DNA of 63,741 bases, counting the filler, from Reclinomonas americana ATCC 50394 (lineage: Eukaryota): the NCBI GenBank assembly GCA_048213135.1. It is 27 parts of 27 records of this genome, joined end to end, with 100 filler letters (N's around TTAATTAATTAA, not from the genome) between each part and the next. Parts side by side here need not be neighbours in the genome. Positions count along the whole stretch, not along the records: positions 41,865 to 43,772 come from AFZH01024098.1; 26 more parts are not named here. One strand, 5' to 3'. Made by a program: the position numbers and the translations under genes. Below are positions 20,780-51,867 of this stretch, one piece after another. The stretch's first letter is position 1, and every line of letters starts with the position of its first letter. The notes beneath the pieces were generated by a model. That model worked only from the letters and a program-made list of their open reading frames with translations, was not told the DNA's origin and did not search any database.

Positions 20780-26256
<5,477 letters not shown>

Positions 26257-26799
26257 GAGTGGTCAGCACGTGTGTGTGCGCGCGCGGGTTGCAATGAGGG
26301 GAGAGGAAGGGGTTGAGCGCGCTGTGGAGTTGCGCGCGAAGATGCGTTGTCCTGCAAGGCGGGAAACGTCGGCATTTGGTTTTCGTGTTTGTTCTTCGCG
26401 TGCGCACTTGCATCCTTGCTTGTCTCTCTCCTGCACGCATATGGTGCATGCAGGGGAAAGCGCTTTGCGATCAAGGCAAGATCCGGAAACTTCGGAATAT
26501 TAATATTTTGCTTCTGTGTTTCCCGCATCCGTGCCTGCTTGCAAACTGTCTTGCTTTTGGTCTCCTCCTCCGTATGCACATGGTGGTCAAGCAAGTGTGC
26601 ACGGAGAAGCAAGCGCGCGTCGGCGAGAGGACTTCGCGATCGGAACTTCGGAGATTTGCAACTCACTTCACTTCTCACGTTCCCTCCTCCCTCCTGCGCT
26701 GCAAACTCTGATCAGCAGATCTTATATTCCTCTCCTTGAGTAAAGAAGGACATCGAAAGGACAACTCACTTGTCTCTGTTATGTCAGTCCGCGCGCGCA

Positions 26800-27918
26800 A
26801 TGACCAGTACTAGTTCTCCCCCTTGGCCTCCTTCACTCCTGTGCAGGGATCTCTGCGAGTACACGCACTGGGTGTGGTCTCTCTCCATCGCCATCACTCC
26901 CGACGCTCAGCACGTGGTGAGTGCAGCGGGGATCGTAGACGACACAGTGCGCGTGTGGTCACTGGCGAGTGGAGCAGAAGTGCGACGACTGGCAGGCCTC
27001 GGAACAGCGGGCTTCAATGCTGCCGCTGTCACACCCGACAATCAGCACATTGTGGGTGGAGGTGATGATCAAATACTGAGTGTGTGGTCACTGGCGAGTG
27101 GCGAGGAGGTGCGACGATTGAAGGGGCACACTGAGGCGGTCTCCTCTGTCGCGGTCACTCCCGACGGACGGCACGTGGTGAGTGGGAGTCGGTATGGCAT
27201 TGTGCGAGTGTGGTCACTGGTGAGTGGCGAGGAGGTGTGGGTGTTGGTGGGGCACACGAGGTCGGTGGATTCTGTGACTGTGACGCCGAATAGTCAGCTC
27301 GTGGTGAGCGGGAGTGTTGACAGTACTGTGCGTGTGTGGTCGTTGGCGAGTGGCGAGGAGGTGCGACGGCTGAAAGGACACACTCGGGCAGTGTTTAATG
27401 TTGCCGTCACTCCCGATGGTCTGCATGCGGTGAGTGGAGGTGATGACAAGACGGTGCGGGTGTGGATGCTGGCGAGCGGGGAAGAGGTGCGACGGTTGGA
27501 GGGGCACGCTGGATGGGTGCAGTCTGTCGCTATCACTCCCGATGGACGACACGTTGTGAGTGGGGGCAATGACAGCACTGTGCGAGTGTGGTCACTGGCA
27601 ACTGGGGAGGAAGTGCAACGGTTGGAGAACAACTCTGGAAGCGTACTGGCTGTCGCCGTCGCCCCCGATGGTCAGCACATCGTATGTGGTATTGTCGACG
27701 GCAAAGTGCGGGTGTGGTCCACTCCGTGCGGTCTCGCTCAGCAGGAGCTTCGCGTAGCGCGTCTGGCCATGTGCAGTGTGCAGGATATGCAGGAGGAGGA
27801 GGAGGAGGAGGAGGCAGATCGGCGCTGCCTCGTGGAGATGGTACTGCGCTGCTTCCTCGTGGAGGAGGCGGAGGTCGTCGTGAATCGATGCTTCATCGAT
27901 GACAGCCTTCGACTGTGA
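26800..27918 (+). CDS. WD40 array gene 1: 7 WD40 repeats plus conserved acidic/helical C-terminal tail
   Basis: Intronless ORF of about 42-aa units GHxxxVxxVAVTPDGxHxVSGxxDxTVRVWSLASGEEVRRL, ending in the tail GLAQQEL...EEEADRRCLVEMVLRCFLVEEAEVVVNRCFIDDSLRL. Confidence 0.92.
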   Translation: MTSTSSPPWPPSLLCRDLCEYTHWVWSLSIAITPDAQHVVSAAGIVDDTVRVWSLASGAEVRRLAGLGTAGFNAAAVTPDNQHIVGGGDDQILSVWSLASGEEVRRLKGHTEAVSSVAVTPDGRHVVSGSRYGIVRVWSLVSGEEVWVLVGHTRSVDSVTVTPNSQLVVSGSVDSTVRVWSLASGEEVRRLKGHTRAVFNVAVTPDGLHAVSGGDDKTVRVWMLASGEEVRRLEGHAGWVQSVAITPDGRHVVSGGNDSTVRVWSLATGEEVQRLENNSGSVLAVAVAPDGQHIVCGIVDGKVRVWSTPCGLAQQELRVARLAMCSVQDMQEEEEEEEADRRCLVEMVLRCFLVEEAEVVVNRCFIDDSLRL

Positions 27919-28086
27919 CCTGCTTTCCCTTTCTCTCCTTCCGACAACCTGCCAGAGTTGTTCTACTACCCTGAATGAAGAAGGTGTTTTTAACTTGCCT
28001 GCACTCGGGGGTGAGTGAAAGATGTCCGCCACAAGAGGACACGCACTCCTTCTCACCTTCTCAATTCCTTCGTCGCCACGCCAGCC

Positions 28087-29175
28087 ATGACCTCCACTCC
28101 CACTACTCCTTTTCTGTGCAAGTGCCTCCACGGACATGACGCCACTGTGACGTCTGTCGCCATCACTCCCGACGGACTGCACATCGTGAGTGGCAGTGAA
28201 GACAAGACGATTCGCGTGTGGTCACTCGCGAGTGGAGCAGAAGTGCGACAGTTGAAGGGACACACTCTACCAGTGACTTGTGTTGTCGTCACTTGCGACG
28301 GACTCCACATTGTGAGCGCGGGTGATGACGAGACTGTGCGCGTGTGGTCGCTGGCGAGTGGCGAGGAAGTGCAACGACTGGAGGGACACACTTGGTTGGT
28401 GAAGTGTGTCGCCGTCACACCTGATGGACGACACATCGTGAGTGGGAGTATTGACGGCAGCATGCGAGTGTGGTCAGTGGAGAGTGGCGAGGAAGTGCGG
28501 CTGTTGAAGGGACAGTTCCGCAGTGTTATCTGTGTTGCCATCGCACCCGATAGCAAGTACCTTGTGTGTGCGAGTAATGACGAGGTGTTGCGAGTGTGGT
28601 CACTGGCGAGTTGGGAGGAAGTGCGACGGTTGGATGGGCACCCTGGGTGGGTATGGTCTGTCGCCGTGACTCCCGATGGTCAGCACGTTGTGGGTGGGTG
28701 TGATAACGGCTCAGTGTGCGTGTGGTCACTGGAGAGTGGCAAGGAAGTGCGACGAATGGTGGGGCACTCCGAGGCGGTTCTGTCTGTCGCCGTCTCTCCC
28801 GATGGTCAGCACGTGGTGAGTGGCAGTGATGACAGCACAGTACGAGTGTGGTCATTGGAGAGTGGAGAGGAGGTGCAACGGTTGGAGGGTCACGCAGGAC
28901 TCTCCTGCGCTGCCTCCGTCGCCCCCAATGGTCAGCACATCGTGAGTGGCGGTGTTGACTGCGTTGTGCGGGTGTGGTCCACTCCGTGCGGCCTCGCTCA
29001 GCAGGAGCTCTGCGCCGCGCGTTCGGCCATGTGCAGTGTGCAGGATATGCAGGAGGAGGAGGAGGAGGAGGCAGATCGGCGCTGCCTCGTGGAGATGGTA
29101 CTGCGCTGCTTCCTCGTGGAGGAGGCGGAGGTCATTGTGCATCGATGTTGGGCCGATGACAGCCTTCGACTGTGA
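28087..29175 (+). CDS. WD40 array gene 2
   Basis: Same architecture; start MTSTPTTP in gccATGa context. Confidence 0.92.
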   Translation: MTSTPTTPFLCKCLHGHDATVTSVAITPDGLHIVSGSEDKTIRVWSLASGAEVRQLKGHTLPVTCVVVTCDGLHIVSAGDDETVRVWSLASGEEVQRLEGHTWLVKCVAVTPDGRHIVSGSIDGSMRVWSVESGEEVRLLKGQFRSVICVAIAPDSKYLVCASNDEVLRVWSLASWEEVRRLDGHPGWVWSVAVTPDGQHVVGGCDNGSVCVWSLESGKEVRRMVGHSEAVLSVAVSPDGQHVVSGSDDSTVRVWSLESGEEVQRLEGHAGLSCAASVAPNGQHIVSGGVDCVVRVWSTPCGLAQQELCAARSAMCSVQDMQEEEEEEADRRCLVEMVLRCFLVEEAEVIVHRCWADDSLRL

Positions 29176-29346
29176 CGTGCTCCGCCCTTCTGTTTTCCCA
29201 CTCTTGCTTCTGAAGACAGCAGGTGTTGTTCTGTTCGCTTGAATGAAGAAGGGGCTGTGAACGTCCGGGGGAAGGGAAGTGGGCACCCAGGACACACTTC
29301 CTTTCCTTCTGTTGTCCTTTCCTTCCTTCCTTCGTCACCACGCGCC

Positions 29347-30169
29347 ATGACCTCCACTCCCACTACTCCCCTCCTGTGCAAGTGCCTCCACGGGCACACC
29401 AGCCACATCCGATGCGCTGCCTTCTCACCCACACTGCAGCACATCGTCACCGGGAGTGTGGACGGAACACTTCGCCTGTGGTCACTGGCGAGTGGAGCAN
29501 NNNNNNNNNNNNNNNNNNNNNNNNNNNNNNNNNNNNNNNNNNNTTAATTAATTAANNNNNNNNNNNNNNNNNNNNNNNNNNNNNNNNNNNNNNNNNNNNT
29601 CGGTGTCGAGCGGAGAGGAGGTGCGACGGTTGAAGGGACACACTGACCGCGTGTCGACTGTCGCTGTCACCCCCGACGGCGAGCACATTGTGAGTATCAG
29701 CGAGGACAAGACGGTGCGCGTGTGGTCGCTAGTGAGTGGCGAGGAGGTGCGACGGTTGGCAGGGTACTCCGATCGAGTGACGCCGGTCGCCATTGCTGCC
29801 ACTGGTCAGCATTTGGTGAGCGGGAGTGTCGACAAGTCGGTGCTGGTGTGGTCACTGGCGAGTGGGGAAGAGGTGAGGCGGTTGGAGGGGCATACGGCGA
29901 TTCCGTGCGCTGTCGCCGTCTCGCCTGACGGGCAGCATGTGGTGAGCGGCAGTCTCGACAACTCCGTGCTGGTGTGGTCCACGTCGTACGGCCTCGCTCA
30001 GCAGGAACTCCGCGCCGCGCGTCTGTCCATGCGTGTTGTGCAGGAGATGCAGGAAGAGGAAGAGGCACACTCAAGATGCCTCGTGGAGATTGTTCTGCGC
30101 TGCTTCGTGGTCGAGGAGGCAGCGGTGATTGTGCATCGATGCTTCGTTGATGACAGCCTCCGTCTCTGA
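29347..30169 (+). CDS. WD40 array gene 3 (interrupted by linker; may be pieces of two genes)
   Basis: N-terminus at 29347-29499 and C-terminal repeats plus tail at 29600-30169. Confidence 0.8.
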
Positions 30170-30316
30170 CGTTCTCTTCTCTTGGTTTTCCCTTTTTTGC
30201 TTCTAAAGACAGCGGTTGTTGTTATATATACGTGAATGAAGGAGGGGCTGTGTACTTCGGGGGGAGGGAAGTGTCCGTCAAGGACGCACACTTTATTCTC
30301 GCACACCACGCCAGCC

Positions 30317-31130
30317 ATGACCTCCACTCGCACTCCTCTCCTGCGCAAAAGCCTGCGCGGGCACACCGCCTCTGTGCTCTGCGTTGCCATCACTCCCGAC
30401 GGGCAGCACATTGTGAGCGGCAGTGAAGACAAGACTGTGCGCGTGTGGTCACTCGCGAGTGGAGCAGCAGTGCGACGATTGAAGGGACACTCTCACGCTG
30501 TGTGCGCTCTCGCCATCACCCCCAATGGACGGCACATTGTGAGTGGGAGTCGGGACAACACCGTGCGAGTGTGGTTACTGGCGAGTGGTGAGGAGATGCA
30601 CCGCTGTGACGGACACGTGGAGTGGGTTCGGTCGGTCGCCGTCACTCCCGATGGTCAGCACGTCGTCAGCGGCAGCTGGGATGAAACTATGCGAGTNNNN
30701 NNNNNNNNNNNNNNNNNNNNNNNNNNNNNNNNNNNNNNNNTTAATTAATTAANNNNNNNNNNNNNNNNNNNNNNNNNNNNNNNNNNNNNNNNNNNNGCGA
30801 GTGTGGTCATTGGAGAGTGGGAAAGAAGTGCTGCGGTTGAAGGGGCGTGCCTCTTGGGGGAATTATGTCGCCGTCGCCCCCGATGGTCAGCGCATTGTCT
30901 GCGGAGGTGTTCGCAAGATTGTGCGCGTGTGGTCCACTCCGTATGGTCTCGCTCAGCAGGAGCTCCGCGTAGCGCATTCCGCCATGCTTGCTGTGCAGGA
31001 GATGCAGGAGGAGGAAGGCGAGGAGGCAGATCGGCGCTGCCTGCCAGAATTGGTGCTGCGCTGTTTCGTGGTCGAGGAGGCAGCGGTGATTGTGCATCGA
31101 TGCTTCGTCGATGACAGCCTCCGTCTCTGA
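30317..31130 (+). CDS. WD40 array gene 4 (interrupted by linker)
   Basis: N-terminus at 30317-30696; last repeat plus tail at 30797-31130. Confidence 0.8.
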
Positions 31131-31289
31131 CGTGCTCTTCTCCCGGGCTTCCTCTCTTGCTTCTGAAGACAGCAGGTGTTGTTATGTTCGTGAATGAATT
31201 CTAGATGGTCAACTTGACGCACGTCGGGAATTCGAATGTCCGTCTCAAAATGGACACGCGATTCCCATTCATTCGTCGCCACACCAGCC

Positions 31290-32357
31290 ATGACCTCCGC
31301 TCCCACTACTCCTCTCCTGCCCCAGTGTCTGCGCGGACACACCGCCACTGTGCTCTGCGTCGCCGTCACTCCCGACGGGCAGCACATTATCAGTGGCAGT
31401 GATGACAAGACGATTCGCGTGTGGTCGCTGGCGACTGGCGAAGAAGTGCGACGATTGAAGGGACACTCTCGCGCTGTGTGCGCTGTCGCCATCACCCCCC
31501 ATGGACTCCACGTGGTGAGCGGAAGCAACGACAAGACAGTGCGCGTGTGGTCACTGGCGAGTGGCGAGGAGGTGCACCGATGTGAGGGACACACGCTGCC
31601 GGTCATGGCTGTCGCCATCACTCCCGATGGTCAGCACGCTGTGAGTGGCGGTGTTGACCAGCTGATCATTGTGTGGTCGCTGGTGAGTGGAGAAGAAGTT
31701 CGGCGACTGGAGGGTCACACGGATTTGGTGCGGTCGATTGCCATCACTCCCGACGGTGTGCACGTGGTGAGCGGCAGTTGGGATAAGACCGCGTGCGTGT
31801 GGTCGCTGGCGAGTGGGGAAGAGGTGCAGCGATTGCGCGCTCCGTCGACATCGTCCGTCGCCGTCACTCCCGATGGTCAGCACGTTGTGAGTGGAGGCAC
31901 GGAGAGCACTGTACGAGTGTGGTCGCTGGCGAGTGGCGAGGAGGTGCGGCGACTGGAGATCGACGACGAAGGGCTGCAGTGCATTGCGGTGACTCGCGAC
32001 GGGCAGCGCGTAGTGAGTGCGCACGAGGACCACACTGTGCGAGTGTGGTCCATGGCCAGTGGAGAGCAAGTGCGACGACTGGAGGGACACAGTGGATGGG
32101 TGATGTCTGTCGCCGTCGCTCCCGATTGTCAGCACCTTGTGAGTGGCAGCCGAGATAAGACGGTGCGCGTGTGGTCCACTCCGCACTGTTTTGCTCGGAG
32201 GGAGCTGGAGAGCGCGTGCTCGGCGATGCGCGCCGTGCAGGATGTGCAGGAGGAGGAGGAGGCTGATCGGCGCTGCCTCGTGGAGATTGTACTGCGCTGC
32301 TTCCTCGTGGAGGAGGCAGAGGTGACTGTTTCCCGGTGGTCAAGTCTCGGGCTGTGA
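31290..32357 (+). CDS. WD40 array gene 5
   Basis: Complete intronless ORF with 7 repeats and a slightly diverged tail (ADRRCLVEIVLRCFLVEEAEVTVSRW). Confidence 0.92.
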   Translation: MTSAPTTPLLPQCLRGHTATVLCVAVTPDGQHIISGSDDKTIRVWSLATGEEVRRLKGHSRAVCAVAITPHGLHVVSGSNDKTVRVWSLASGEEVHRCEGHTLPVMAVAITPDGQHAVSGGVDQLIIVWSLVSGEEVRRLEGHTDLVRSIAITPDGVHVVSGSWDKTACVWSLASGEEVQRLRAPSTSSVAVTPDGQHVVSGGTESTVRVWSLASGEEVRRLEIDDEGLQCIAVTRDGQRVVSAHEDHTVRVWSMASGEQVRRLEGHSGWVMSVAVAPDCQHLVSGSRDKTVRVWSTPHCFARRELESACSAMRAVQDVQEEEEADRRCLVEIVLRCFLVEEAEVTVSRWSSLGL

Positions 32358-32539
32358 CCTTGCTCCTTGTCTCATCTCGGTTTTTTCTGTCTCTTGATGT
32401 CTTTGCTTCTGTTCTCTTTCGCCTGCTTGTGTTGCTGGAGTGAATTCGTTGTACGTGAGGAAGCTGCGAAGTGGACAACAAGTGTCCCTATCCCAAAAGG
32501 ACGATTTCTCTCACACTCCTCCACACTCAAGAGCGAGTC

Positions 32540-32754
32540 ATGACCTCCCCTGCTCCTCCTTCTCTGCCGCACAAGCTCTTGGTACACACTAACCTCCTAG
32601 TGTGTGTCGCTGTCACTCCCGATGGCCAGTACATAGTGAGTGGCAGCAGCGACAAGACATTGCGCGTGTGGTCACTGACAAGTGGCGAGGAAGTGCGACA
32701 GTTGAGTGGGCACACCATGACGGTGGCCACTGTTGCCATCACTGCCGATGGTCG
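32540..32754 (+). CDS. WD40 array gene 6 (3' truncated)
   Basis: MTSPAPP...VAVTPDGQYIVSGSSDKTLRVWSLTSGEEVRQL. Confidence 0.85.
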
Positions 32755-35707: not shown

Positions 35708-36417
35708 CAGCGCGCACTCCCCAACCGATTGATGATTTCCGCGGCGACGGCGTTCGTCTGATCCCGCGCCTCTTTAATGGGCCTGGTCTCGCCGTCGACC
35801 TCGTAAAGGGTGCCTGCCGTCGCGATCGCGCCAAAGGTAGGCCGCTGCGACAGATAGCTGTCGAACAGTTGCACCTCGGCTTTCGTCAATTGCGCGAGTG
35901 CCGTCCTGAAGGCCATGGTGTTCTTGTCGATGCCCGACACGCCGTTCATCAGCACGCCGTACGGAATCGTCCGGTGCCGCCCTCCGAGCAATTCGATTTG
36001 CCGGACCAGAGCCAGCGAGCTGTCGACATCGAAGACGTGTGGGCGGGTCGGGATAACAACGAAGTCGGCATACGCAACGGCGGCACCCATGGCCGCGCTC
36101 GCAGTCCCCTGGATATCGACGAGAATCAGGGAGTAGTGCCGCGCGTTCTTCAGTGTCTCGCCGAGAGCGGTGACATCGGTCACCGAGACCAGGTCGATAT
36201 CACGTAGTGCGAAGCCAACCTTCTTGCTGTTCCGGTACCAGCGCGAGGCGGATTCCTGCGGATCGGTATCGACGACAAGGACCTTGTGTCCAGCGGCCGC
36301 GAACTCGCCGGCGAGCAGGATCGTGGTCATGGTCTTTCCCGCCCCACCTTTGGGCGAGGCGATCGTGACTTGTAGGGCTTCGCTGTCAGGTTCGCTCACC
36401 TGGCGCTTTTCCTTCAA
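35707..36417 (-). CDS. parA: ParA/VirC1-like ATPase
   Basis: Deviant Walker A KGGAGKT, VDTDPQ and ILVDIQG...ADFVVIP. Confidence 0.9.
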   Translation of the reverse strand: MKEKRQVSEPDSEALQVTIASPKGGAGKTMTTILLAGEFAAAGHKVLVVDTDPQESASRWYRNSKKVGFALRDIDLVSVTDVTALGETLKNARHYSLILVDIQGTASAAMGAAVAYADFVVIPTRPHVFDVDSSLALVRQIELLGGRHRTIPYGVLMNGVSGIDKNTMAFRTALAQLTKAEVQLFDSYLSQRPTFGAIATAGTLYEVDGETRPIKEARDQTNAVAAEIINRLGSAR

Positions 36418-36684
36418 AGAACTTGAGTCATTCCACCATTCTGCAATGACGTCATTCGCTCAATATATCAAGCAAAGATCCGAAAAGTCACGTCGTTTCA
36501 GTCCCGGCTGAGGGGATGGGAGCGTGATGCGATGAGCGAATGACACGATGAGCGGCAATGCGAATGACAGAATAGAAGAATGAGAAGTTGACGGGATGGC
36601 CAGCAAGTCGAATGATGGAATGAAGTTATCGTCGGATTGTTAGATGTATTTATGAGTGCATTGCGGGTATTTTTGAGATTTAAT

Positions 36685-36715
36685 TGACAAGATACTCAAT
36701 TTGGGTCCAAATTGA
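36685..36715 (-). promoter_or_regulatory. Putative oriT (MOBP-type nic site with adjacent inverted repeat)
   Basis: The minus strand reads TCAATTTGG-AC-CCAAATTGA-GTATCTTG^TCA: a perfect 9-bp inverted repeat directly 5' of a YATCCTG-like nic motif. It lies between divergent parA and mobC/relaxase. Confidence 0.65.
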
Positions 36716-36783
36716 TCGGCAGGTCGCGCCGCCGGCGACCTGGGCCGGCTGCGCCGGCACCTTTCCCTTCCAAGGGAGCTTTC

Positions 36784-37191
36784 ATGTCTGCCACCAAGAC
36801 CCGAGCCGACGAACGCAAAAGAGCCCGCGTCGATCTCACGCCCGAGGTGAGCGCGTGGCTCGACGAGGCGTCACGGGCCTTTGGCTTGAGCCGCTCAGAG
36901 ACCCTTCGGCGCCTGATTCAGGCGAGCCTCGATGTCGGTCCGGCGCTCTCTGCCGAGAACTCCCGCACGGTCGCAGCGCTCGCATCCCAAGTCCGGATGG
37001 TGGGCCGGAACCTGTCGCAACTCGTTCACGCGATCCATGCCGGGCGCGCGCCTTCGATGGAAGCGGCGCTGCCGATCTGGGAAATCCTGGACGAGCGGGT
37101 GAGCGCGATCGATCATGAGCTGACTGCGATGACCGTGGCGTATGGTCTGAAGCTCCGTCGGGCCGCGCATATGCGGGAGATCGAGGCGTGA
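36784..37191 (+). CDS. mobC: MobC-like relaxosome accessory protein
   Basis: RHH-like N-terminus (LSRSETLRRLI) and QVRMVGRNLSQLVHAIH, matching the MobC L..IG.NLNQ motif; overlaps the next gene (GTGA). Confidence 0.8.
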   Translation: MSATKTRADERKRARVDLTPEVSAWLDEASRAFGLSRSETLRRLIQASLDVGPALSAENSRTVAALASQVRMVGRNLSQLVHAIHAGRAPSMEAALPIWEILDERVSAIDHELTAMTVAYGLKLRRAAHMREIEA

Positions 37192-38649
37192 GCGTCGATC
37201 AGGCCGCCTTGGATGGCATGGCGATGCAGATGCGCGCGCGCCTTGCGGCGGAGGCGGAGAATCGCCTGATCCGCCAGTCCAGGGCAGGGGAGGGATATTC
37301 CGCCCCGCGCCCATATTTCGCGGCGCGGCAGCATCACGGNNNNNNNNNNNNNNNNNNNNNNNNNNNNNNNNNNNNNNNNNNNNTTAATTAATTAANNNNN
37401 NNNNNNNNNNNNNNNNNNNNNNNNNNNNNNNNNNNNNNNCATCTCTCCGATGCCCGGGTGCAGGGCGATCGCCGGTTCAGCGCCCCCACCCGACAGATGA
37501 TCGCTGATCGTGTCGGCGCCGCGATCGGTATCCCAGCCGAGGCAGTCGATGTCGTTCCAGTTGGCAAGGCGAGCCACGGCAAGGCTGGTGTCATCTACCA
37601 GCTCTCTCGGCTGACCCATGACGGCAAGGCACGAGGCGGAGATGGCGAGGTGATCGCGACCGAGCCGCAGGTGCGCGCTGCGGCCCAGGCCTGGAGCAAG
37701 GCGCTCCGTTCCTTCTCGCCACGCGATACGATGCACATGATCCTGTCGGCGAAGGCCGGTGAGGACAAGGCGGCGCTGGTTCGGGCGGCGCGCGGGTTTC
37801 TGCACGAGCTGTTCCCCGAGCATAAATTCGCATTCGCGCTTCATGATGACAAAGAAGTCGATGGGCATATGCATGTCCACGTCATCGTCGCAGTCAAGGG
37901 CGAGGACGGGCAGAGACTGCGGCCGGGCCCGGCCGACCTGCGGAACTGGCGTGCGGTCTATGCGACTCATGCCCAGCAGCAAGGTCTCAAGATCGTCGCC
38001 ACTTCGGCCGCCTACCGCGCGTCGTCGCAGAGCTACGGTCCGCGCGACAAGGCGATTGTCGACGTCGCTGAACGGCCGCGCGCGGGGCGGGAGGCCCAGG
38101 ACCGAGCCTATGCGAAGGCCAATCCGCATGTCGTCGAGAAAGCGCGGCAGCGCATTCAGCGCGCCAGGATCAACCCCGTTCGGCTGCCGGAGACCGGGTC
38201 ACAACTCGCTGCCGCAGGCGAGGGGCTGCGGGACTGGCAGGCGGTCGCACAGGCGCAGCCGAACCATCCGGCTGCGGCTCAATATATTGCGCGGCTGACG
38301 CAAAGCCTCGCTTCGGGTAAGATTCTGGTCTCGCTCAATCAGTACCGAAAGGCATCGAACATGGCTGACGCGACCGCCGCCGAGATGCGGGAAAACCTGA
38401 AGGACATCAGCGAGGCCGTGGCGCTTGCTGCCGGCGTCATGGGGGGCGCGACGAAGATGGAGTTCCTGCGCCGGACCGCTGCGACCATGGAGAAGCTGGC
38501 AATCCAGACCGATCTCAAGGCCAGTCAGGAAAGCGGGCAGACGCACATGTCCGAGGACGAGGTGCACCAGCTTCTCGGTCCGCATGCTGATGCGCTGATC
38601 GCCCGCGCTCGCGAGATCGAGGCGGCTGAACAGCGCGAGGCCGAGCGGG
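37188..38649 (+). CDS. MOBP/VirD2-like relaxase (split by linker, 3' truncated)
   Basis: RDTMHMILS (motif II) and FALHDDKEVDGHMHVHVIV (HUH motif III), followed by GQRLRPGPADLRNWR..YA. The N-terminus is coupled to mobC. Joining across the gap is inferred. Confidence 0.85.
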
Positions 38650-40200: not shown

Positions 40201-41864
40201 CTCAAGCTCGCTTCTCGCAGAGAGTAAGAGAAAGGAAAACAAGCTTTTGACGCAGAGAAACCACCGAAGACGACCAGAAATGCTCATTCAGTCTATGCAA
40301 ATACCTCCAGTCTACAAAGTCCATCCACTATCCTCTGCAATACGAACTCTATTCCAACGTAATTTCGTGCATCTCGCTCAACATACATGCTTTCATCCGC
40401 AGTGTCTCTCTGGCCACTGTTACAACTCACTCATTCTGTTCACCGTTGCTTCCCCATTCCTCCTCCCTCGACCTCCACTTTCTCCTTGCCAGCTGAACTA
40501 GTCTCACTCTCTCGCCCTCGCTCACTAACTCACGTAGCTGTCGCACAAGGAAGCAACCGCACATTCTCATTGGCCCCAGTTTCTATTCACTCCATCTCAC
40601 CTCTCACCTCCTCTCTTCTCTCTCTTCTTCCCCTTTCCTTTCTCTTACATTCCTTTATCTCCTCTCATCTTTCCTCTCATCCCCTCTCTCACACATTCTC
40701 CTCTTTTCCTCTCTCACTTCTCCTCCTTCTCTTCTCCTTTCTTCCCTTCTTCTTCTCTCTTCTCCTCCAGCCTCTTCTCGTCTCCTCCCCTCTCTTTCCT
40801 CTTCTCTCTTCCCATCACCCATTTCCCTTCTCCTTTCCTCTCTTCCATTCCGCTTCCCTTCTCCTCCCGTCTCTTCCCGTCTCATCCCCTCCCGTCTCCT
40901 CCTTGTCCTCTCCTCTCTTTCCTTCGTCCATTTCCCTTCTCCTCTCCTCTCTTCCATTCCGCTCTCTTCCCTTCTCCTCCTTCTCTTCCCCTCCCGTCTC
41001 CATTCCCTTTTCCTCCCCTCCCGTCTCCTCCTTCTCCACTTATCCCTTCCTTTCCCCCCTCCCTTCCCTTTTCCCATGTGCACACCGAACGTCGCTGAAG
41101 AAGATGGGCATGGAGAGCAACCAGCTGCGCCGAGTGGTGGACAGGTGCTGCATGGAGATGCTGTGGGCGGAATATGTGATCTTCGCTATCCGCTGCGCAG
41201 GTGAACTCGTTAGTATACAGCGACATCTCTTGCATCGAATACACATGTCTCACCAGCCAACTAACTCGACGAGTGTACTCTCGACGAATATGTCAAGTAA
41301 TTGAGGGCATCTCTTCGCCATGAAGAATACGACACGAAACCCTTGACCAAGGTGCAGCTGGACCAAAGATCATCTGCATCAGAAATAGATGCAGCCAGCG
41401 ACGACGACAAACAACCTGTATTGTGATTCGTCAGATCGCTGAGGTCATTTTGCACATTGTTAACGCCGAGCACATAGTTCGGCTTGGCGCATATTGCAAG
41501 CACGACAAGCTAGGGGTCCACGCGTGCCCGCATCATCCGTAAGCTACAAACGATCAAGTCGGCGGACAGTTTATGGTTGTTGATACACGAGCTTCCGTTT
41601 GCCCTTGTTACAAAATCACGCCGGTGAAATCAGGCAGGAAGGAGCCGACAATGCGCAGGAGTAGCTCTCCATCGTGGTGTGCAAGTGGTGAATCCTTCCA
41701 TCTTGGAAGAACACGCTGTCCATCAACCTCTGTACACATCCCGTCCGTGTGGCCTTCCAGTCCGNNNNNNNNNNNNNNNNNNNNNNNNNNNNNNNNNNNN
41801 NNNNNNNNTTAATTAATTAANNNNNNNNNNNNNNNNNNNNNNNNNNNNNNNNNNNNNNNNNNNN

Positions 41865-43772
41865 ACACGTACAGTCTTGTCTTGACTGCCGCTCACGACG
41901 TGGAGGCCATCTGGTGTCACTGCCACAGCCCTCACCGCTTTCGTGTGCCCTTCCAGTCGGCGCACTTCCTCGCCAGTTGCCACTGACCACACATGTACAG
42001 TACCGTCAGCACTGCCACTCACAATGTGCTGGCCATCGGGTGTCACTGCCACTGCGCTCACCACACTCGTATGGCCTTCAATTGGTTTTCTCGGCCACTT
42101 CATACCCGTCATATACGCCCCCGTGAAATCCGCCTCTCTCGCAAATGCCATGCACACATTCACCCCTCGCATATCCGCTCCCCTCCACACAGTCCTGTGC
42201 ATCACTGCATCCCTCAAGTCCGCACCGGGTATTCGCACACCGGACAGTTCGCGCCCGCTGAACGAGACCTCGGCGAGACACAGCGCACTGGCCGCACTCG
42301 ACGACACGGCAGCGACTCTTTCCTCCGTGCGTGAAAGAGCAATCACCTTCCACAGTACGTCATGGAGAGACGGATCAGCCTGCACTTGCTCGGCGACGAA
42401 TGACAGGATGGAATTAAGTCCCTGCAGCCAGCGAAGAAGGGGTGAGCGCATGTCGTGAGAGCGAATGATGGAAAGGATGCACTCACTTCATCCGATGTGA
42501 GCAGTGTCCGCTGGCCACTGAAGCTGGCGCACAGTCTGTCGAGCCGATCCTGCACCGAGGTAGGTTGACAATCATGCAGAATGAATGATCAGAGAAGCAT
42601 GACGATACTCACCTCCAACTCCACCTCCTCATCGGCCAACAACCGCACATCAGCCAGCCACGACTGAGCGGCAAAGTACTCCAGCACCGATTTGTGCATG
42701 AACTCCACACGCTGTTGCGATGCTCCGAGTCGACTCCACTTCAACAATGCCTGTGTCGTATCTCGAATGAGAACGCAGGGAATGCATCGCCATGAGAGAG
42801 GGACGACGCAACAGCGCGAACAAGGGAGTTCTGCAGCGGATCATCACGATCAAACCACTTGTTCCACACATGCTGCTCTGCGACAGCTTGTTGAGTGTGC
42901 TGTGATGAATGAAGGATAGTGAGCTGAGACACGCAGATGGAACAGGAATTGTAGCACACTTCTCATGTTGAACGTACAGACCTCGAGCTTTCCCTGCCGC
43001 ACAGATACCAAAGAGTGTTGCATCATCTCTCCAGCAAGCTCCGAGCAAAAGTCCCACACTCGCAGACAGAAATTCTCTTCCGATTCTTCGTCGCCATACA
43101 ACTGTGCAAGAATGATTTGTGTAAGAAGGCATGTATTCCACACTGTGATCCACAACCGCCAACGGCACACCTGACGAATGTGCACTTGGTGATGCTCAAA
43201 CTCCCAGCGCAGTTTGTGTTTGGCAAACGCCTCATACAAACGTGCACGAGTTACACGATTCGTGAAGAGTGCAGTACCACCGCCAGCGCCGTCATGGCGG
43301 TGCTGCAACCGTTCCAGATCTTCCATCACCAGAACAATCATATTCAACATCAGGGGCTGTTATGGAAATGGGGGAAAGGAGGAAAGTGAGTACCACCGCC
43401 GCCACTGCATGTACATGTGAAATTCTTTTGTTGTGCTGTCACTTTTCTTGTCGCTCTCGTACAACACTCTTCACGTCGATATCAGAGCGCACTCTGTTTC
43501 CTTCCATCATCAACGACTCACCGACGAAGCCAGTCCATCCAATCCCGGCGTGCGCTCGATCTGCTGCTTGTACTGCTCCCATGAGCGAGGGTGATCCGCT
43601 CGTGACTCCACAAACCTGCTCACACAAAAGTGAATGTGTAATCCAAGTGAACAAGCACGGCAGAGCAGCGATGGCACTCAACTTGTGCAAAAAGAGATCA
43701 ATGTCATCCTTGGAGAACAGACGCAGCATACATCGTACAAGCGTACGCTCCGACTGATGAAGCCGCTCGGCA
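41865..43772 (-). CDS. Spliced NACHT/STAND-pentapeptide-WD40 (NLR-like) protein, internal fragment
   Basis: Motifs appear in the expected order: LFSKDDIDLFL; PLMLNMIVLVM; VTRARLYEAF; FMHKSVLEYFAA (42702-42667, NACHT winged-helix signature); FSGRELSGVRIPGADLRDA...GADMRGVN...ADFTGA (pentapeptide); then WD40 repeats. The Walker A lies outside the contig. Confidence 0.8.
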
Positions 43773-43872
43773 NNNNNNNNNNNNNNNNNNNNNNNNNNNN
43801 NNNNNNNNNNNNNNNNTTAATTAATTAANNNNNNNNNNNNNNNNNNNNNNNNNNNNNNNNNNNNNNNNNNNN

Positions 43873-45771
43873 CAGCCGGCCCGCCAAGAGCGGTCCAAGT
43901 GACACCCAGGTCGGCCGACACGAAGTTCTGGTTGGTGTTGACTTGCGAGGCGTACAACAACCGTCCGTCGCCGCTCAGTTGCACGGCGCTCGCGAACGCA
44001 AACACGCCCACGGGCAAGCTGCGCTGCGCCCACGTGTGACCGCCATCCGTCGACACGGCAATGTCGTCGTCGACGGCGACAGCAGAGACGACAACTGTCG
44101 TGCCATCCTCGCTCATCGTTATCGACTGGAAAGAGACGTTGGAACCGGTCGACACGCCAGTCCATGTCGCCCCACCATTCTCGGAGATCCGGACGTCCAC
44201 CGGCTTGGCAGTGGTGATGGCGACCAGCTTCCTACCGTCGGCACTCATCACGACGCCGCGCACACGGAGAGAAGCGGTGTTGCTGAGGACTTTTGTCCAG
44301 GTCGCGCCCAGGTCTTGCGAAGTGAATACGCCACCGGCTGTATTTGCATACGACGCAGCAAGGTTTCGACCACTGCGACTTGCGGCAACAGTGGGAACGA
44401 AGCCGCTGAGGAGGCCAACCAGTGGGCTCACGCGTTTGATACAAGAATCCGCGCAGATAGCCACAGTTGCCGTCTGCTGCAGGCACACTTGTCCACCAGT
44501 GCACGCCTCCGTCATCGGCGTGCCGTTGCAGGAGAGCACGCTCATGCCGTCGGAGGAGCACACGGACTCGCCGACACCCAGCTGACACTGGCTGCAGTCC
44601 GACCCGAAGAAGCCAGCGGGGCACTGCGGCGGCGCACCGACAGTGACTCGGCCCACGGTGGTCCACGTGACAAGCGTCGTGTTGCCGGCTCCCGGGTCCT
44701 CCGTGGAAAACGTAAAGCCGCTCACAAACGTCTCGCCGCCGACCACGTGCGTCTGCAACGCGAGCGAGCTGTTCAATACGTGGTGGCTGATCACGGCTCC
44801 GCCACTGGACTTGGATTTCCAACCACGCAAGAACAGCTGCGTCGTCAAGGTGGCAGCGAGGAGTCCATTCGGCGCGTCTACCGAAATCAAGCTGATCGTA
44901 GCCGTGAGCGAGTCAGAGGTGTGCGTGGTCTCTGTTTTGGTGGACAGGTGTGAGATGCTTCTCATTACACAGAAAGAGAAAAGGCAGTAGCACACGCACC
45001 ACCCGCTCGCATAACAAAGCCCGTGCGGTTGGAAGCATCTTCACGGGCCGGGCCAATGGCAACTCGCGCATACAGGCGCTCTACTTGCGCGTCGCCGGTG
45101 ACAACGCCGTTGACGTCACCATCTGTGCGGCTGACGGATCCGTGTGACAGCACAAAGCTGTCGGAGAGTGTGGCCCCAGTAGCGTCAGGCGATGCCCGTC
45201 GTCTGGCGCGCACGCCAGTCAGTGCCACGGCCAGTGTTGGCACGGATGCGAAGGGGTACACGGCCGAGACGCTGCGTCGCTGCATTGATGAAGAAGGTAA
45301 GCGAAACACCGCGATGTACAAGAAAGAGACTCGTAGTCATACTCGCCACCAGCACAGATTTGTTGGTGGCTGCACTGAGCCAACCCTTACTGCTGAGTTG
45401 AACAGTGCGCGAGAGGGTGAAGGCGTCCGAATGATGCACGTAGTACGCGAGGTACGCTGCACGAATATGAAGGACGATTGTGAGTACAAAGCATTATCGA
45501 GGGGGGTTACACCACACACAGACACTCTGTCTCTCCCTCTCTCTCATTCTCTCTCNNNNNNNNNNNNNNNNNNNNNNNNNNNNNNNNNNNNNNNNNNNNT
45601 TAATTAATTAANNNNNNNNNNNNNNNNNNNNNNNNNNNNNNNNNNNNNNNNNNNNACTCTCTCTCTCTCTCCCATCTCTCTCACTCTCAGTCTCCCTCTC
45701 CCTCATTTCTCTCAGTCTCTCTCAGTCTCTCTTACTCTCTCCCTCTCTCTTCCATCTCTCTCTCTCTCCCA

Positions 45772-49253: not shown

Positions 49254-51282
49254 GAGGCGTCTCGCTGCCGGGCTCAGAGGTGCCGGGCGACGTGCCTTCC
49301 CCGGTCGACGGAGTCGTCGGCGTCTCCTCGCTCGGTGTCGACGGCTCGGCAGTCACAGGAGGCGTTTCGGTGACCGGCTCGGAGGTCGTCGGCGGCGTGC
49401 CGCTGCCGTTCCCGCTCGACGGCGTCTCGACCTCGGGCGAGGTCCCGGTCAGCGCCGAACCGACCGAGTCGAACGGCACGGAGTCGATGCCATGCGCCTG
49501 CGCCACCGACCCCGAGACGAAACCATAATTGCCGTTCGTCGCGTCGACGAAGCCCGCCTGGCTCGTCTCGGTACTGCCGGTATCGCCGCCCTGGCGCTGG
49601 AAGCTCGCCAGCGAGACGTCGGCGATGGTCAGCTCGCCACCATTCGGATTGTAGTAGACATTGTCGTGGATCAGGCTCGGATCGGTCTGGTCGGTATCGA
49701 TCGTGTTGCTGCCGTCTCCGGAGACCTGGATGAAGTTGTTGTAGGTCTCGTTGCCGTCGATCGGATTGTCATCGGCTACGATCGTCGAGATTCCGTACTT
49801 GCCGTTGTCGAGCAGCGTGTTGTCGTGGATCTCGTTGTTCGATCCACCATGGATAAGGATGCCGCTGAACGTCGTCCCCTGGACGAAGTTGCCGTAGATC
49901 TGGGCATTGCTCGCCATGTTGTCGAGGTAGATGCCGGAGCTCCAATCTTCCGCGAAGCCGCCATCCTTGGTGTTCGTTCCACCGGTGTCGACGATGGTGT
50001 TGTAGCGGATGATGCTACCGTCCGCGCCGGAATCGTCGGCCGAGAACAGGTAGATGGCGCCAGTATCGGGCGTCTGCTGCCCGGAATGACGGATATCGTT
50101 GTATTCGATGGTGTTGCCGCCGGACTGGATGTCGGGATCGTAGTTGACCTCGGAGATGCCGAAGCGCGGCACGTTCGTGATCGTGTTGTGGTCGATCTGG
50201 TTGCCCGCCGACTCCTGCATGTCGATCGAGCCGTACTGGACGAACACCTCGTTCGAATGGTCGACAGTGTTGTTGGTGACGTGGTTGCCGCTCGTCCCCG
50301 CCGTCATGGCGATGGCGCTCGACCAGGTGTGCTCGAAGCTGTTGCTCGAGACGGTATTGCCGCTGCTGTCGCCGTGCAGGGCGACGCCGACGCCGACATT
50401 GACGAACTGGTTGCCCTCGATGACCACGCCGTTGGCGTCGTTCACCTCGATCGCGGCGGTGGTCGGGTCGCCCGAGCTCGAGGCGGTGTCGGTAAAGGTG
50501 ATGCCCTTGACGGTGACGTTGTCCGCTCCGTCGATGGAGATGATGCTGTGGTCGCCGGAGACGACGCCGCCCTCGCCGGTGAAGCCGTCCGGAGCCTTGT
50601 AGGAAATGGTCTGCGTCTGCTCGTCATAGGACCATTCGCCGACATTGTCCGGCGTGTCCTGGGAGACGTAGTAGCGGCTCGCGGCGCCAAGATCGTAATT
50701 GGCCTCCGTGGTGAAGGTCATCACATTGCCTTCGACCGAGGCGATGGTCAGCACTTCGCTGGAATAGCCGTTCTCTGTGAAGACCGTGACCGTGTCGCCG
50801 GCTTTCGGCTGCTCGCCGGCCGGGTAATCGGACGGATCGAACGCCATCGACTTCTGAGCATCATATCCCGCCGGCAGATCCTGCCCCCAGAGCCAGCCGC
50901 CATGAACCGGATCGCTCGGATCGACGTCGGGGTAACGGCTTTCGGTCTGCTTCTCGCCGTTGACGGTGAACTGCTGGACATCCTGCGCATCGACATGCGC
51001 CGTCCAGATTCCGTTAGCACCTTGCGTCCAGCCGCTCACCTGCGTGCCGCCGCTGATCACGACGTTCTGCCCGGACATCGCCACGATGGATGAACCGGAA
51101 TCGGCGGAGGTCAGCTTGAGAGCATCATCCACATAATAGGTGCCACCGGCGATGTAGACCGTGTCCGCACCCTTGCTCTGGTGCATGGCTTCGACGGCCC
51201 GCTCCAGCGTCTGGAAAGATGAACTTTCATTCAATCCCGTATTATTATCGCTTCCGGTGGTCGAGACGTAAAATGTGGCCAT
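49254..51282 (-). CDS. Right-handed parallel beta-helix repeat protein (putative secreted glycanase), 3' truncated
   Basis: TFYVSTTGSD.N.G start, VVISGG...W, many PbH1 repeats, DTGAIY and GIYLDN.ASN..IYGN, then a Pro/Thr/Ser/Glu linker. No signal peptide. Confidence 0.85.
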
Positions 51283-51867
51283 AAAGGGGCTCCTTTTTTG
51301 GCTGCAACACGTTAAGTGATCGCTGCCTAGATACCCTTGAGGCCTGATTCGGTGCTACCGGAACTGACGAGCCCTTACTCCGAAGGATTAGTTCATTCGG
51401 ATTAGTCATCTTGTTTTGGCGCACTATATCAATGGATTGTTTCTTGGCGCAGTCTCCCCCGCCCTGTTGATGGATTGGCCTGATCGGCTCCGAGGCGCCA
51501 GTTTACAGCGCAGGCGGAGCCCTCAAATGGCCTTATTCTCGCAGCCAGAAGGCGAAATCACCCCATAACTCAACGCGGCCTTGTCCGAATCGGTTCCACC
51601 ATCCGCATGGCAGATGGTCAGGTGATGGTCGCAGAACCGGGCGCTTGCGGCGAGGCGATCGACATAGGCCCGGAAGGCGGCCAACGTCCCGACCGGGCGT
51701 TGGCAGCCGTCGCAGATCACCAGCGCCTCTCCCGAGAGGTCGCTCGGCAGATGAACGGCGGGCGATCCACAACCCTGGCAGCTGAACCCGCCAGCCTGCG
51801 GCGCCGGCGCAGATGCGCCGAGATCCGGGGCTGGCGAGCAGCGCGGCGTAGCGATGCAGGCGGCTGC

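What the first reader, a model, noticed from the sequence alone, without database searches (positions are those of the whole stretch)
41865..43772. NACHT-pentapeptide-WD40 NLR-like gene whose WD repeats match the stand-alone array
Seen: post-NTPase STAND motifs (TRARLYEAF, FMHKSVLEYFAA), a pentapeptide block (GVRIPGADL), then GHTSVVSAVAVTPDGQHIVSGSADGTVHVWSVATGEEVRRLEGHTKAVRAVAVTPDGLHVVSGSQDKTVR. This has the same consensus, including GEEVRRL, as the array at 26.8-32.8 kb. Known: NACHT-pentapeptide-WD40 proteins are expanded in Mortierellaceae fungi, their Mycoavidus endosymbionts and some cyanobacteria. Inference: the array may derive from, or exchange repeats with, NLR sensor domains and so act as a repeat reservoir.
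Basis: partly seen in the sequence, partly recalled or inferred. Interest (0 to 1): 0.72.

Follow-up and report, generated by a model that had tools for sequence, protein, structure and literature searches.

The report
Fragment of a eukaryotic NLR-like gene
This 1.9-kb piece is the middle of an intron-containing gene for an NLR-type immune-receptor-like protein from an unidentified eukaryote, a known kind of protein, and its sensor repeats resemble the nearby WD40 genes only at the protein level.

Summary
The window is 27 short contigs joined by N44-TTAATTAATTAA-N44 spacers, and the finding is exactly contig 18 (41865-43772). The gene lies on the minus strand and runs off both contig ends.

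With seven GT..CAG introns removed, it gives 444 open codons. These cover the end of a NACHT-type NTPase, a helical/winged-helix part, a helical linker, a pentapeptide beta-helix with the family motif GVRIPGAD, and the first two WD40 repeats. The product matches a profile of NACHT-pentapeptide-WD40 proteins (Cyanophora, Linnemannia, Mycoavidus, one metagenome protein) from position 145 to 529 of 533. Walker A and B and the N-terminal effector lie off the contig and could not be recovered.

The host is a eukaryote with about 60-nt introns and no close sequenced relative. No fungal protein was among the named XRN1 hits, so Mortierellaceae has no support, and high-GC bacterial contigs share the window. 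The gene is a long branch, 18-25% identical to every relative.

The "repeat reservoir" idea is not supported. NLR and array repeats share their consensus. Where they share a residue, they use the same codon in 368 of 871 cases (0.423, against 0.419 expected by chance). The longest exact DNA match is 15 nt.

Verdict: a new, fragmentary member of a known family.

The parts
41865..43772 (-). Whole of contig 18: an internal fragment of one gene, open at both contig ends. It has 8 exons and 7 introns and gives 444 codons without a stop.
   Evidence: Spacer map and splice model. The exons are 43771-43683, 43615-43522, 43356-43171, 43101-42982, 42899-42813, 42750-42613, 42549-42487 and 42421-41865.
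43522..43771 (-). Exons 1-2 with intron 1 (43682-43616, 67 nt). They encode the last part of the NACHT-type NTPase domain, after sensor 1 (peptides LFSKDDIDLFLHK and WEQYKQQIERTPGLDGL).
   Evidence: They align to positions 145-205 of my NOD profile. Walker A and B lie at profile positions below 145 and are off the contig.
43357..43521 (-). Intron 2, 165 nt, GTGAGT..ACAG.
42613..43356 (-). Exons 3-6 with introns 3-5 (43170-43102, 42981-42900 and 42812-42751). They encode the helical and winged-helix parts of the NOD module (PLMLNMIVLV, TRARLYEAF, VEFMHKSVLEYFAA).
   Evidence: Profile positions 206-391. The region is collinear with Linnemannia and Cyanophora proteins in tblastn.
42275..42612 (-). 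Intron 6 (42612-42550), exon 7 (42549-42487), intron 7 (42486-42422) and the first 49 codons of exon 8. Together they encode a three-helix linker ahead of the beta-helix.
   Evidence: AlphaFold2 model: helices at 2-15, 18-29 and 34-49 of exon 8, mean pLDDT 87.1. Profile positions 440-490.
42092..42259 (-). Pentapeptide-repeat beta-helix of about ten five-residue units. It starts at the family motif L-x-GVRIPGADL.
   Evidence: Pfam Pentapeptide at 24.9 bits against a cut-off of 20.2. GVRIPGAD is invariant in 13 of 13 aligned sequences. The model shows a strand mark every five residues from 58 to 108.
41867..42085 (-). WD40 repeats 1 and 2. The second is cut by the contig end one residue before its Trp.
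   Evidence: Pfam WD40 at E 7.6e-22 with two stretches. The model shows six beta strands at 121-179. Foldseek matches to WD40 propellers have rmsd about 1 A over about 70 residues.
26740..32754 (+). Comparison object, not part of the gene. It is a tandem cluster of at least five stand-alone WD40 genes spread over contigs 11-13. Each has an MTST..-type start, about seven repeats and a roughly 65-aa tail ending in DDSLRL.
   Evidence: The tail has no detectable homologue.

Best explanation
Contig 18 is an internal fragment of a nuclear, intron-bearing gene from an unidentified eukaryote. It encodes an NLR-like STAND protein of the NACHT-pentapeptide-WD40 family.

By analogy with characterised NLR/STAND proteins, I infer the following mechanism; none of it is shown here. 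The C-terminal WD40 propeller or propellers bind a ligand or guard a target. The pentapeptide beta-helix and helical linker act as a rigid spacer. Ligand binding releases the NACHT NTPase for nucleotide-dependent oligomerisation. That brings together an N-terminal effector domain, which lies off this contig; relatives carry an ARM-like solenoid or a TIR-like domain there.

The WD repeats are the same protein-level repeat type as those of the tandem stand-alone WD40 genes at 26.7-32.8 kb. The two sets have not exchanged DNA recently. Their likeness reflects old common descent or shared constraint on a widespread repeat type.
For: Shown:
- WD40 and Pentapeptide pass Pfam's curated cut-offs.
- Seven introns all start with GT and end with CAG. 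They measure 62-165 nt and have 49% GC, against 56% in the exons. Removing them leaves 444 codons without a stop.
- The spliced product matches a profile of eight relatives' NOD-plus-linker regions in one stretch, positions 145-529 of 533, at 129.6 bits. In the whole window only contig 18 matches that profile.
- Three of 37 hits cover 96% of the linker-pentapeptide query. All three are 1774-1881-aa Linnemannia-type proteins; two carry precomputed NACHT and Pentapeptide domains and all three carry ARM_5 and WD40.
- The closest relatives of exon 8 are Cyanophora paradoxa proteins, at 38.7% and 39.6% over 194-197 aa. Their N-terminal parts give weak NACHT, TIR_2 and ARM_5 hits.
- GVRIPGAD is invariant in 13 of 13 aligned family members, which include Mycoavidus and Nitrospirae MAG loci.
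- The AlphaFold2 model (pLDDT 87.1) shows three helices, a period-5 beta-helix and WD strands.
- Eukaryotic host: XRN1 exons lie collinear on contigs 9-11 with 60- and 62-nt GT..CAG introns.
- No recent exchange with the array.

Inferred: the sensing and oligomerisation mechanism and the nature of the effector.
Against: - Walker A, Walker B and the N-terminal domain are not on the contig, so NTPase competence and the effector are unknown.
- Pfam's NACHT model does not hit any piece of the contig. Even the Cyanophora relatives score below its curated cut-off, at 21-23 bits against 26.7.
- I chose the intron borders by eye from GT/AG signals, reading frame and homologue alignment. No RNA data were available.
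- Identity to every relative over the NOD region is only 18-25%, and the branch is long and unplaced.
- Only two of an unknown number of WD repeats are visible, so later repeats could behave differently towards the array.
- Codon usage differs somewhat between the fragment and the array genes (for example CGT 0.24 against 0.06, and GC3 0.61 against 0.65-0.75). The window is a mixed bin, so a shared genome for the two is not proven.
Confidence: 0.8

Rival explanations
1. Repeat-reservoir model. The stand-alone WD40 array donates repeats to, or receives them from, the NLR sensor domain by recombination or gene conversion, as in fungal NLRs with highly internally conserved repeats.
For: The two sets share a repeat consensus, including VWS..GEEVRRL. 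The Trp-Ser dipeptide occurs in 28 of 30 array repeats and in the one complete NLR repeat, but in only 136 of 2635 repeats (5.2%) of the 150 best database proteins. The two NLR repeats nest among array repeats, sister to A1_u4 with SH-aLRT 94. The best array identity (73.6%) exceeds the best database identity (66.7%).
Against: Synonymous sites carry no shared signal: 0.423 observed against 0.419 expected, while array-array comparisons give 0.572. The longest exact match is 15 nt, against up to 83 nt within the array. The repeats are not highly conserved at DNA level anywhere: mean array-array nucleotide identity is 0.616. Trp-Ser is not unique to this genome; a Mycoavidus NLR has it in 10 of 13 repeats.
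Confidence: 0.08
2. Contig 18 and the WD40 array come from different organisms within a mixed bin. Their likeness would then be only the general likeness of this WD40 repeat type.
For: The window mixes contigs of 65-70% GC carrying bacterial genes (Wzz, Poly_export, relaxase, VirC1-type ParA) with intron-bearing contigs of 53-60% GC. Contig 18's neighbours do not continue its gene. Codon usage and GC3 differ from the array. Synonymous sites are saturated between the two.
Against: Intron size and borders on contig 18 (62-82 nt, GT..CAG) match those of the XRN1 gene on the scaffold that holds the array (60 and 62 nt). The array is more similar to the fragment than any of the roughly 200 database proteins compared. 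The Trp-Ser signature is shared.
Confidence: 0.2
3. The fragment is a decaying pseudogene, or a bacterial gene broken by frameshifts or assembly errors, and not a spliced eukaryotic gene.
For: No single frame is open across the contig. The motif AANAITIL, conserved in relatives, is degenerate here (SSSAASAL). The branch is very long.
Against: Every frame change coincides with a GT..CAG interval of 62-165 nt and lower GC, and the spliced frame has no stop in 444 codons. The spliced product scores higher against the family profile (129.6 bits) than its four pieces summed (about 102 bits).
Confidence: 0.07

Closest known systems
NACHT-PPR-WD40 NOD-like receptors of Mortierellomycota and Mycoavidus cysteinexigens (Ciach et al., Evol Lett 2024, PMC11291939; passages read)
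   Same: The domain order matches: end of NACHT, winged helix, helical linker, pentapeptide beta-helix, WD40. The junction motif G-[VI]-R-I-P-G-A-D is shared. Linnemannia proteins P0001, P0002 and P0008 are collinear with the contig.
   Different: Identity is only 22-24% over the NOD region and 26-28% over exon 8. The fragment groups with neither the fungal-Mycoavidus clade nor any other. It carries seven spliceosomal introns. No fungal protein was among the named hits to its host's XRN1 exon. Its N-terminal domain is unknown; the Linnemannia proteins have ARM_5 there.
Cyanophora paradoxa (glaucophyte) predicted proteins P0138, P0068 and P0051 from EukProt
   Same: These are the closest relatives of exon 8, at 38.7-39.6% identity, with the same order of NOD motifs, pentapeptide and WD40. 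They are also eukaryotic.
   Different: Over the NOD region they are no closer than the others, at 23-24%. Their WD repeats end in Trp-Asp, not Trp-Ser. I found no paper describing them. Searches returned only one paper holding both Cyanophora and NACHT, and it does not treat this family.
Bacterial NACHT (bNACHT) anti-phage proteins (Kibby et al., bioRxiv 10.1101/2022.07.19.500537; passages read)
   Same: They are STAND/NACHT proteins whose C-terminal sensors can be beta-propellers or pentapeptide repeats. The paper proposes repeated transfers of NACHT genes from bacteria to eukaryotes. Bacterial loci with the same linker-pentapeptide-WD40 module exist in Mycoavidus and Nitrospirae MAGs.
   Different: None of the tested bNACHT proteins is shown to have this architecture in the passages I read. 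The clade assignment given in earlier scan notes ('clade 11') does not appear in the main text, and I could not see the supplementary table. The present gene is eukaryotic.
Podospora anserina HNWD/NWD NLRs (HET-E, HET-D, HET-R) with highly internally conserved WD40 repeats (PMC12222747, abstract from the search listing only; the rest is recalled)
   Same: They have the NACHT plus WD40 sensor architecture. The idea of repeat shuffling between paralogous loci comes from this system.
   Different: The repeats here are not highly conserved at DNA level: mean 62% nucleotide identity, with synonymous sites at the chance level between NLR and array. A pentapeptide spacer is present here. From recall, not tested here, it is absent from HET-E-type proteins.

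Membership tests
NACHT NTPase (STAND class) | Walker A P-loop (GxxxxGK[ST]) and Walker B acidic motif | not testable with these tools
   The contig begins at profile position 145, after Walker B and sensor 1. No other contig in the window matches the profile. No whole genome is held. No close relative was found in genome or metagenome collections.
NACHT NTPase (STAND class) | Match to the curated Pfam NACHT model (PF05729) | tested here: not met
   None of the six frame pieces hit it at E up to 1. This is expected, because at most about 25 of the model's 167 positions can lie on the contig. The Cyanophora relatives reach only 21-23 bits against a cut-off of 26.7.
NACHT NTPase (STAND class) | Post-P-loop NOD elements in order: the end-of-domain F-x-x-x-x-[IV]-x-x-[FY] motif, P-[LF]-x-L helical motif, L-Y-x-x-F helix, and winged-helix F-x-H-[KR]-[ST]-x-x-E-Y-F | tested here: met
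   All are present and collinear with relatives (LFSKDDIDLF, PLMLNM, RLYEAF, FMHKSVLEYF). They align as a single 129.6-bit stretch.
NACHT-pentapeptide-WD40 NLR-like family | Helical linker followed by a pentapeptide beta-helix that opens with G-[VI]-R-[IV]-P-G-A-D | tested here: met
   Pfam Pentapeptide is above its cut-off. The motif is invariant in 13 of 13 aligned sequences and is present in Linnemannia, with close variants in Cyanophora, Mycoavidus and the metagenome relative. The structure model agrees.
NACHT-pentapeptide-WD40 NLR-like family | WD40 propeller directly after the pentapeptide block | tested here: met
   WD40 at E 7.6e-22 with two repeats, then the contig ends. The number of blades is unknown.
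NACHT-pentapeptide-WD40 NLR-like family | N-terminal effector or adaptor domain (ARM-like or TIR-like in relatives) | not testable with these tools
   It lies off the contig. Relatives: ARM_5 in P0001, P0002 and P0008; weak TIR_2 in P0051 and weak ARM_5 in P0138.
NLRs with highly internally conserved, exchanging repeats (Podospora HNWD type) | Near-identical repeat units at DNA level within and between loci | tested here: not met
   Nucleotide identity is 0.60-0.62 between NLR and array, 0.616 within the array and 0.76 between the two NLR repeats. Synonymous identity is at the chance level. The longest shared word is 15 nt.

The most novel reading that the evidence does not exclude
The fragment comes from a soil eukaryote with no sequenced close relative. 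This organism holds its own old, intron-invaded branch of the NACHT-pentapeptide-WD40 family, equidistant from the glaucophyte, Mortierellomycota-Mycoavidus and other bacterial branches. If so, the family is far older or more widely spread in eukaryotes than the single Mycoavidus-Mortierella transfer in print. The same genome would also have spun off the repeat type into a tandem cluster of stand-alone seven-bladed WD40 genes with a private C-terminal tail, for instance as detached sensors or decoys working with NLRs.
Probability: 0.2. Interest if true: 0.55.

Novelty: new member of a known kind. Interest (0 to 1): 0.3.

Why it matters
NACHT-pentapeptide-WD40 receptors have been discussed mainly as a gene family shared between Mortierella-type fungi and their Mycoavidus endosymbionts. 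This is an intron-rich, deeply divergent copy in an unrelated, unidentified eukaryote, and Cyanophora has similar genes. Together they suggest the family has a wider and older eukaryotic distribution than that. This bears on how often NLR-type immune genes moved between bacteria and eukaryotes.

For the scan itself there is a practical lesson. This window is a chain of short contigs from a mixed bacterium-plus-eukaryote assembly, so neighbourhood arguments across the spacers are unsafe. Protein-level repeat likeness should also not be read as DNA exchange without a synonymous-site test.

Tried and rejected
- **Whole genome.** None is held for this window, so the full gene could not be recovered. 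My NOD profile found no second piece anywhere in the window.
- **Genome and metagenome collections.** The search for related loci found no close relative in genome contigs (best a Mycoavidus MAG at 39%) or in metagenome contigs (best 38%).
- **Sequencing runs.** One DNA run is listed (X1, labelled rhizosphere metagenome), holding 8% of the sampled words. When laid, it gave eight pieces, the longest 151 nt of the stretch, most under 95% alike. None bridged an intron or extended the contig. No RNA holder is listed, so the introns could not be checked with reads.
- **Exhaustive HMMER search with exon 8.** It was swamped by WD40 proteins (366,196 hits at E up to 0.001). Only re-screening the 150 listed proteins by tblastn picked out the informative ones.
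- **Tail of the stand-alone WD40 genes.** Residues 318-386 of the frame 28015-29172 gave no homologue among proteins of 212-676 aa.
- **ESM Atlas on the linker-pentapeptide part.** It returned only generic pentapeptide clusters.
- **Foldseek against PDB.** It returned only WD40 propellers; the beta-helix part did not surface in the 50 ranks shown.
- **Earlier scan notes.** There were none for this genome or for look-alike sequence.
- **Reading as a frameshifted bacterial gene.** I considered and rejected this; see the rival explanations.
- **Host identification.** The one conserved exon I could afford to search (XRN1) gave only 45-58% matches to green algae, a fish and unnamed sequences. The lineage stays open.
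Full report
**What the window is**

The 63,741-base window holds 52 runs of exactly 44 N. They are arranged as 26 spacers of the form N44-TTAATTAATTAA-N44. The spacers cut the window into 27 contigs of 1.1-5.5 kb, with GC from 0.53 to 0.70.

The finding's coordinates, 41865-43772, are exactly contig 18 (1908 bp). No whole genome is held for the window.

The contigs are of two kinds:
- Those with 65-70% GC carry long uninterrupted frames with bacterial-type domains: Wzz, Poly_export/SLBB, MobA/VirD2 relaxase and VirC1-type ParA.
- Those with 53-60% GC have fragmented frames, GA/CT microsatellites at their ends and eukaryotic genes.

Pieces of one XRN1 5'-3' exonuclease lie collinear on the minus strand of contigs 11, 10 and 9: XRN_N 25-95, XRN_N 158-241, XRN_M 2-33 and XRN_M 172-324. 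WD40 genes also continue across the spacers between contigs 11, 12 and 13. Contigs 9-13 are therefore one scaffold.

Contigs 17 and 19 do not continue the gene of contig 18. Arguments from neighbourhood across spacers are unsafe here.

**Check of the observation**

The 207-aa open frame 42487-41867 passes Pfam's curated cut-offs for two families:
- WD40: E 7.6e-22, 77.2 bits against a cut-off of 27, two repeats.
- Pentapeptide: E 1.5e-5, 24.9 bits against a cut-off of 20.2.

The five upstream frame pieces hit no Pfam family.

**Gene model**

No frame is open across the contig. Every frame change coincides with an interval that begins with GT and ends with CAG. The seven intervals are 67, 165, 69, 82, 62, 63 and 65 nt long. 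Their GC is 0.49, against 0.56 in the flanking coding parts.

Removing them leaves eight exons and 444 codons without a stop, open at both contig ends. I chose the borders by eye from GT/AG signals, reading frame and homologue alignment. No RNA data were available to confirm them.

Two introns of the XRN1 gene on the array scaffold are 62 and 60 nt, also GT..CAG with pyrimidine-rich 3' parts. This fits one eukaryotic source for both loci but does not prove it.

**Family**

*Word-based search.* I searched with the linker-pentapeptide part of exon 8 (residues 1-115) among longer proteins. This gave 37 hits among 566 candidates.
- Three hits cover 96% of the query. They are 1774-1881 aa long; two are named Linnemannia elongata and L. 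gamsii, and two carry precomputed NACHT and Pentapeptide domains.
- The other 34 are pentapeptide-only proteins.
- The three long proteins also have an N-terminal ARM_5 domain, at E 2.7e-51 to 8e-54, and are collinear with the contig in tblastn.

*Exhaustive HMMER search.* This search with exon 8 was flooded by WD40 proteins. Re-screening the 150 listed hits showed that the best matches extending through the linker and pentapeptide part reach 38.7%, 39.6% and 37.5% identity over 192-197 aa. The first two, and a third relative (P0068), are Cyanophora paradoxa predictions from EukProt. Other relatives are a Mycoavidus cysteinexigens 'NACHT domain-containing protein' and a Reticulomyxa filosa protein.

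*The Cyanophora N-terminal parts.* They contain a P-loop, a Walker B motif, the motif NPFTL, the helix ELY..F and the winged-helix motif FLHKTLLEYF. Their Pfam hits are weak and below the curated cut-offs: NACHT at 21-23 bits, TIR_2 at 24 bits and ARM_5 at 18 bits.

*Profile test.* I built a profile of 533 positions from the NTPase-to-linker regions of eight relatives: three Cyanophora proteins, three Linnemannia-type proteins, one Mycoavidus protein and one metagenome protein.
- Against the six-frame pieces of contig 18, four minus-strand pieces hit in collinear order, at 4.1, 8.9, 19.1 and 69.6 bits.
- Against the spliced product, one continuous stretch hits from position 145 to 529, at 129.6 bits.
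- In the whole window nothing else matches at E up to 0.01.

*Junction motif.* An alignment of exon 8 with twelve loci from Mycoavidus MAGs, a Nitrospirae MAG and metagenome contigs shows G-V-R-I-P-G-A-D invariant in 13 of 13. Linnemannia, Cyanophora and Mycoavidus proteins have close variants.

*Structure model.* An AlphaFold2 model built on that alignment has mean pLDDT 87.1. It shows three helices, a strand mark every five residues from 58 to 108 (a pentapeptide beta-helix), and six WD strands. Foldseek returns WD40 propellers only.

*Conclusion on family.* The fragment is a member of the NACHT-pentapeptide-WD40 family. It starts just after sensor 1. Walker A and B and the effector domain are off the contig and cannot be tested.

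**Source and relationships**

- The XRN1 exon gave 11 hits at 45-58% identity. The named ones are green algae and a fish; none is fungal. The search is word-based and returned few proteins, so a Mortierellaceae source lacks support but is not excluded.
- In a maximum-likelihood tree over the 385 shared profile columns, the fragment is a long unplaced branch (length 2.1). It is 18-25% identical to every relative. Cyanophora forms one clade, and Linnemannia with Mycoavidus forms another with 95/96 support.
- The public genome and metagenome collections hold nothing closer than 39% and 38%.
- One run labelled rhizosphere metagenome holds short pieces related to the contig. This is too little to name a habitat.

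**NLR repeats against the array**

The 'array' is a tandem cluster of at least five stand-alone WD40 genes. Each has a short MTST..-type start, about seven repeats and a roughly 65-aa acidic/hydrophobic tail ending in DDSLRL. The tail has no detectable homologue.

*Protein level.* The likeness is real but not exclusive.
- The 72-aa NLR stretch is 60-74% identical to the five array frames that hold two full repeats.
- Unrelated database proteins reach 60-67% over the same stretch.
- The Trp-Ser dipeptide in place of Trp-Asp is shared by 28 of 30 array repeats and by the one complete NLR repeat. It is rare in the 150 database proteins (136 of 2635 repeats), but a Mycoavidus NLR also has it in 10 of 13 repeats.

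*DNA level.* There is no sign of kinship beyond chance.
- Mean nucleotide identity between NLR and array repeats is 0.60-0.62. The array-array mean is 0.616, and the two NLR repeats are 0.76 identical to each other.
- The longest exact match between NLR and array is 9-15 nt, against up to 83 nt within the array. The best blastn match is 73.4% over 188 nt.
- At positions where the residue is the same, the codon is the same in 368 of 871 cases (0.423). The expectation from pooled codon usage is 0.419. Array-array comparisons give 2642 of 4619 (0.572), and the two NLR repeats give 15 of 20.
- In a tree of 28 repeat cores (84 nt each; I left out units of odd length and the non-repeat A1_u0), the two NLR repeats pair with each other (SH-aLRT 80). 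They sit among array repeats, but 17 of 25 inner branches are unresolved.

Recent exchange or a 'reservoir' role therefore has no support for the two visible repeats. A remote common origin remains possible. Later repeats of the NLR are not on the contig.

**Mechanism**

This part is inferred, not shown. By analogy with characterised STAND/NLR proteins, the WD40 propeller or propellers would bind a ligand. The pentapeptide helix and linker would act as a rigid spacer. The NACHT module would oligomerise on nucleotide exchange and bring together an N-terminal effector. In relatives that effector position holds an ARM-like solenoid or a TIR-like domain.

**What is in print**

- 'NACHT-PPR-WD40' NOD-like receptors shared by Mortierellomycota and Mycoavidus are described in PMC11291939 (passages read).
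- Bacterial NACHT proteins with beta-propeller or pentapeptide sensors, and repeated transfers to eukaryotes, are described in the Kibby et al. preprint (passages read). Its supplementary table was not visible to me, so the clade assignment cited in earlier scan notes is unverified.
- NACHT-WD40 proteins in Chlamydomonas are described in PMC4773052 (passages read).
- Searches turned up no paper on this architecture in glaucophytes or other protists. The library is partial, so this does not show that no such paper exists.

**Verdict**

The NLR reading is supported as far as a 1.9-kb fragment allows. The reservoir inference is not supported. This is a new, fragmentary and divergent member of a known family, from an unidentified eukaryote in a mixed assembly.

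Noticed in passing
whole window; spacers at e.g. 1956-2055, 41765-41864 and 43773-43872: The window is 27 contigs of 1.1-5.5 kb chained by N44-TTAATTAATTAA-N44 spacers. It mixes contigs of 65-70% GC carrying bacterial genes with contigs of 53-60% GC carrying intron-bearing eukaryotic genes. It therefore looks like a contaminated or mixed bin, and adjacency across spacers mostly means nothing.
   Followed up: partly
20210-26135, minus strand (contigs 9, 10, 11): One XRN1-type 5'-3' exonuclease gene is spread collinearly over three contigs, with introns of 60-62 nt (GT..CAG). Its best database matches are only 45-58% identical (green algae, a fish). The eukaryote therefore has no close sequenced relative.
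   Followed up: partly
26740-32754, plus strand (contigs 11-13): A tandem cluster of at least five intron-less stand-alone WD40 genes lies here, only about 100-250 nt apart. Each ends in a conserved tail of about 65 aa (..QELR.A..AM..VQ.MQEEEE..DRRCLVE.VLRCF.VEEAEV.V.RCF.DDSLRL). The tail has no detectable homologue. The function of these genes is unknown.
   Followed up: partly
24801-25780 (contig 11): A purine-rich low-complexity stretch translates into Glu/Arg/Lys-rich frames. It contains a repeated unit of about 40 codons (..[26 protein letters not shown]..). It lies between the XRN1 5' exon region and the WD40 cluster.
   Followed up: no
35142-38649 (contigs 15, 16): A VirC1/ParA-type ATPase (35710-36459, minus strand) and a MobA/VirD2-type relaxase (37440-38649, plus strand) lie on two neighbouring contigs of 61-66% GC. 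This suggests a plasmid or integrative element in the bacterial fraction.
   Followed up: no
49254-57731 (contigs 22-24): Bacterial exopolysaccharide genes lie here: a Wzz/tyrosine-kinase-like chain-length determinant (51868-54318, minus strand), Poly_export/SLBB (55006-56391, plus strand) and a right-handed beta-helix protein (49254-51354, minus strand).
   Followed up: no
43873-45040, minus strand (contig 19): A BNR/Asp-box, sortilin-Vps10-like repeat protein fragment runs off the contig end next to contig 18. It is unrelated to the NLR gene.
   Followed up: no
L010-L015 (six contigs of one metagenome): One metagenome holds at least six different contigs encoding the same linker-pentapeptide-WD40 module, at 34-38% identity to the query. 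This points to a lineage-specific expansion of the family in some organism of that sample.
   Followed up: no
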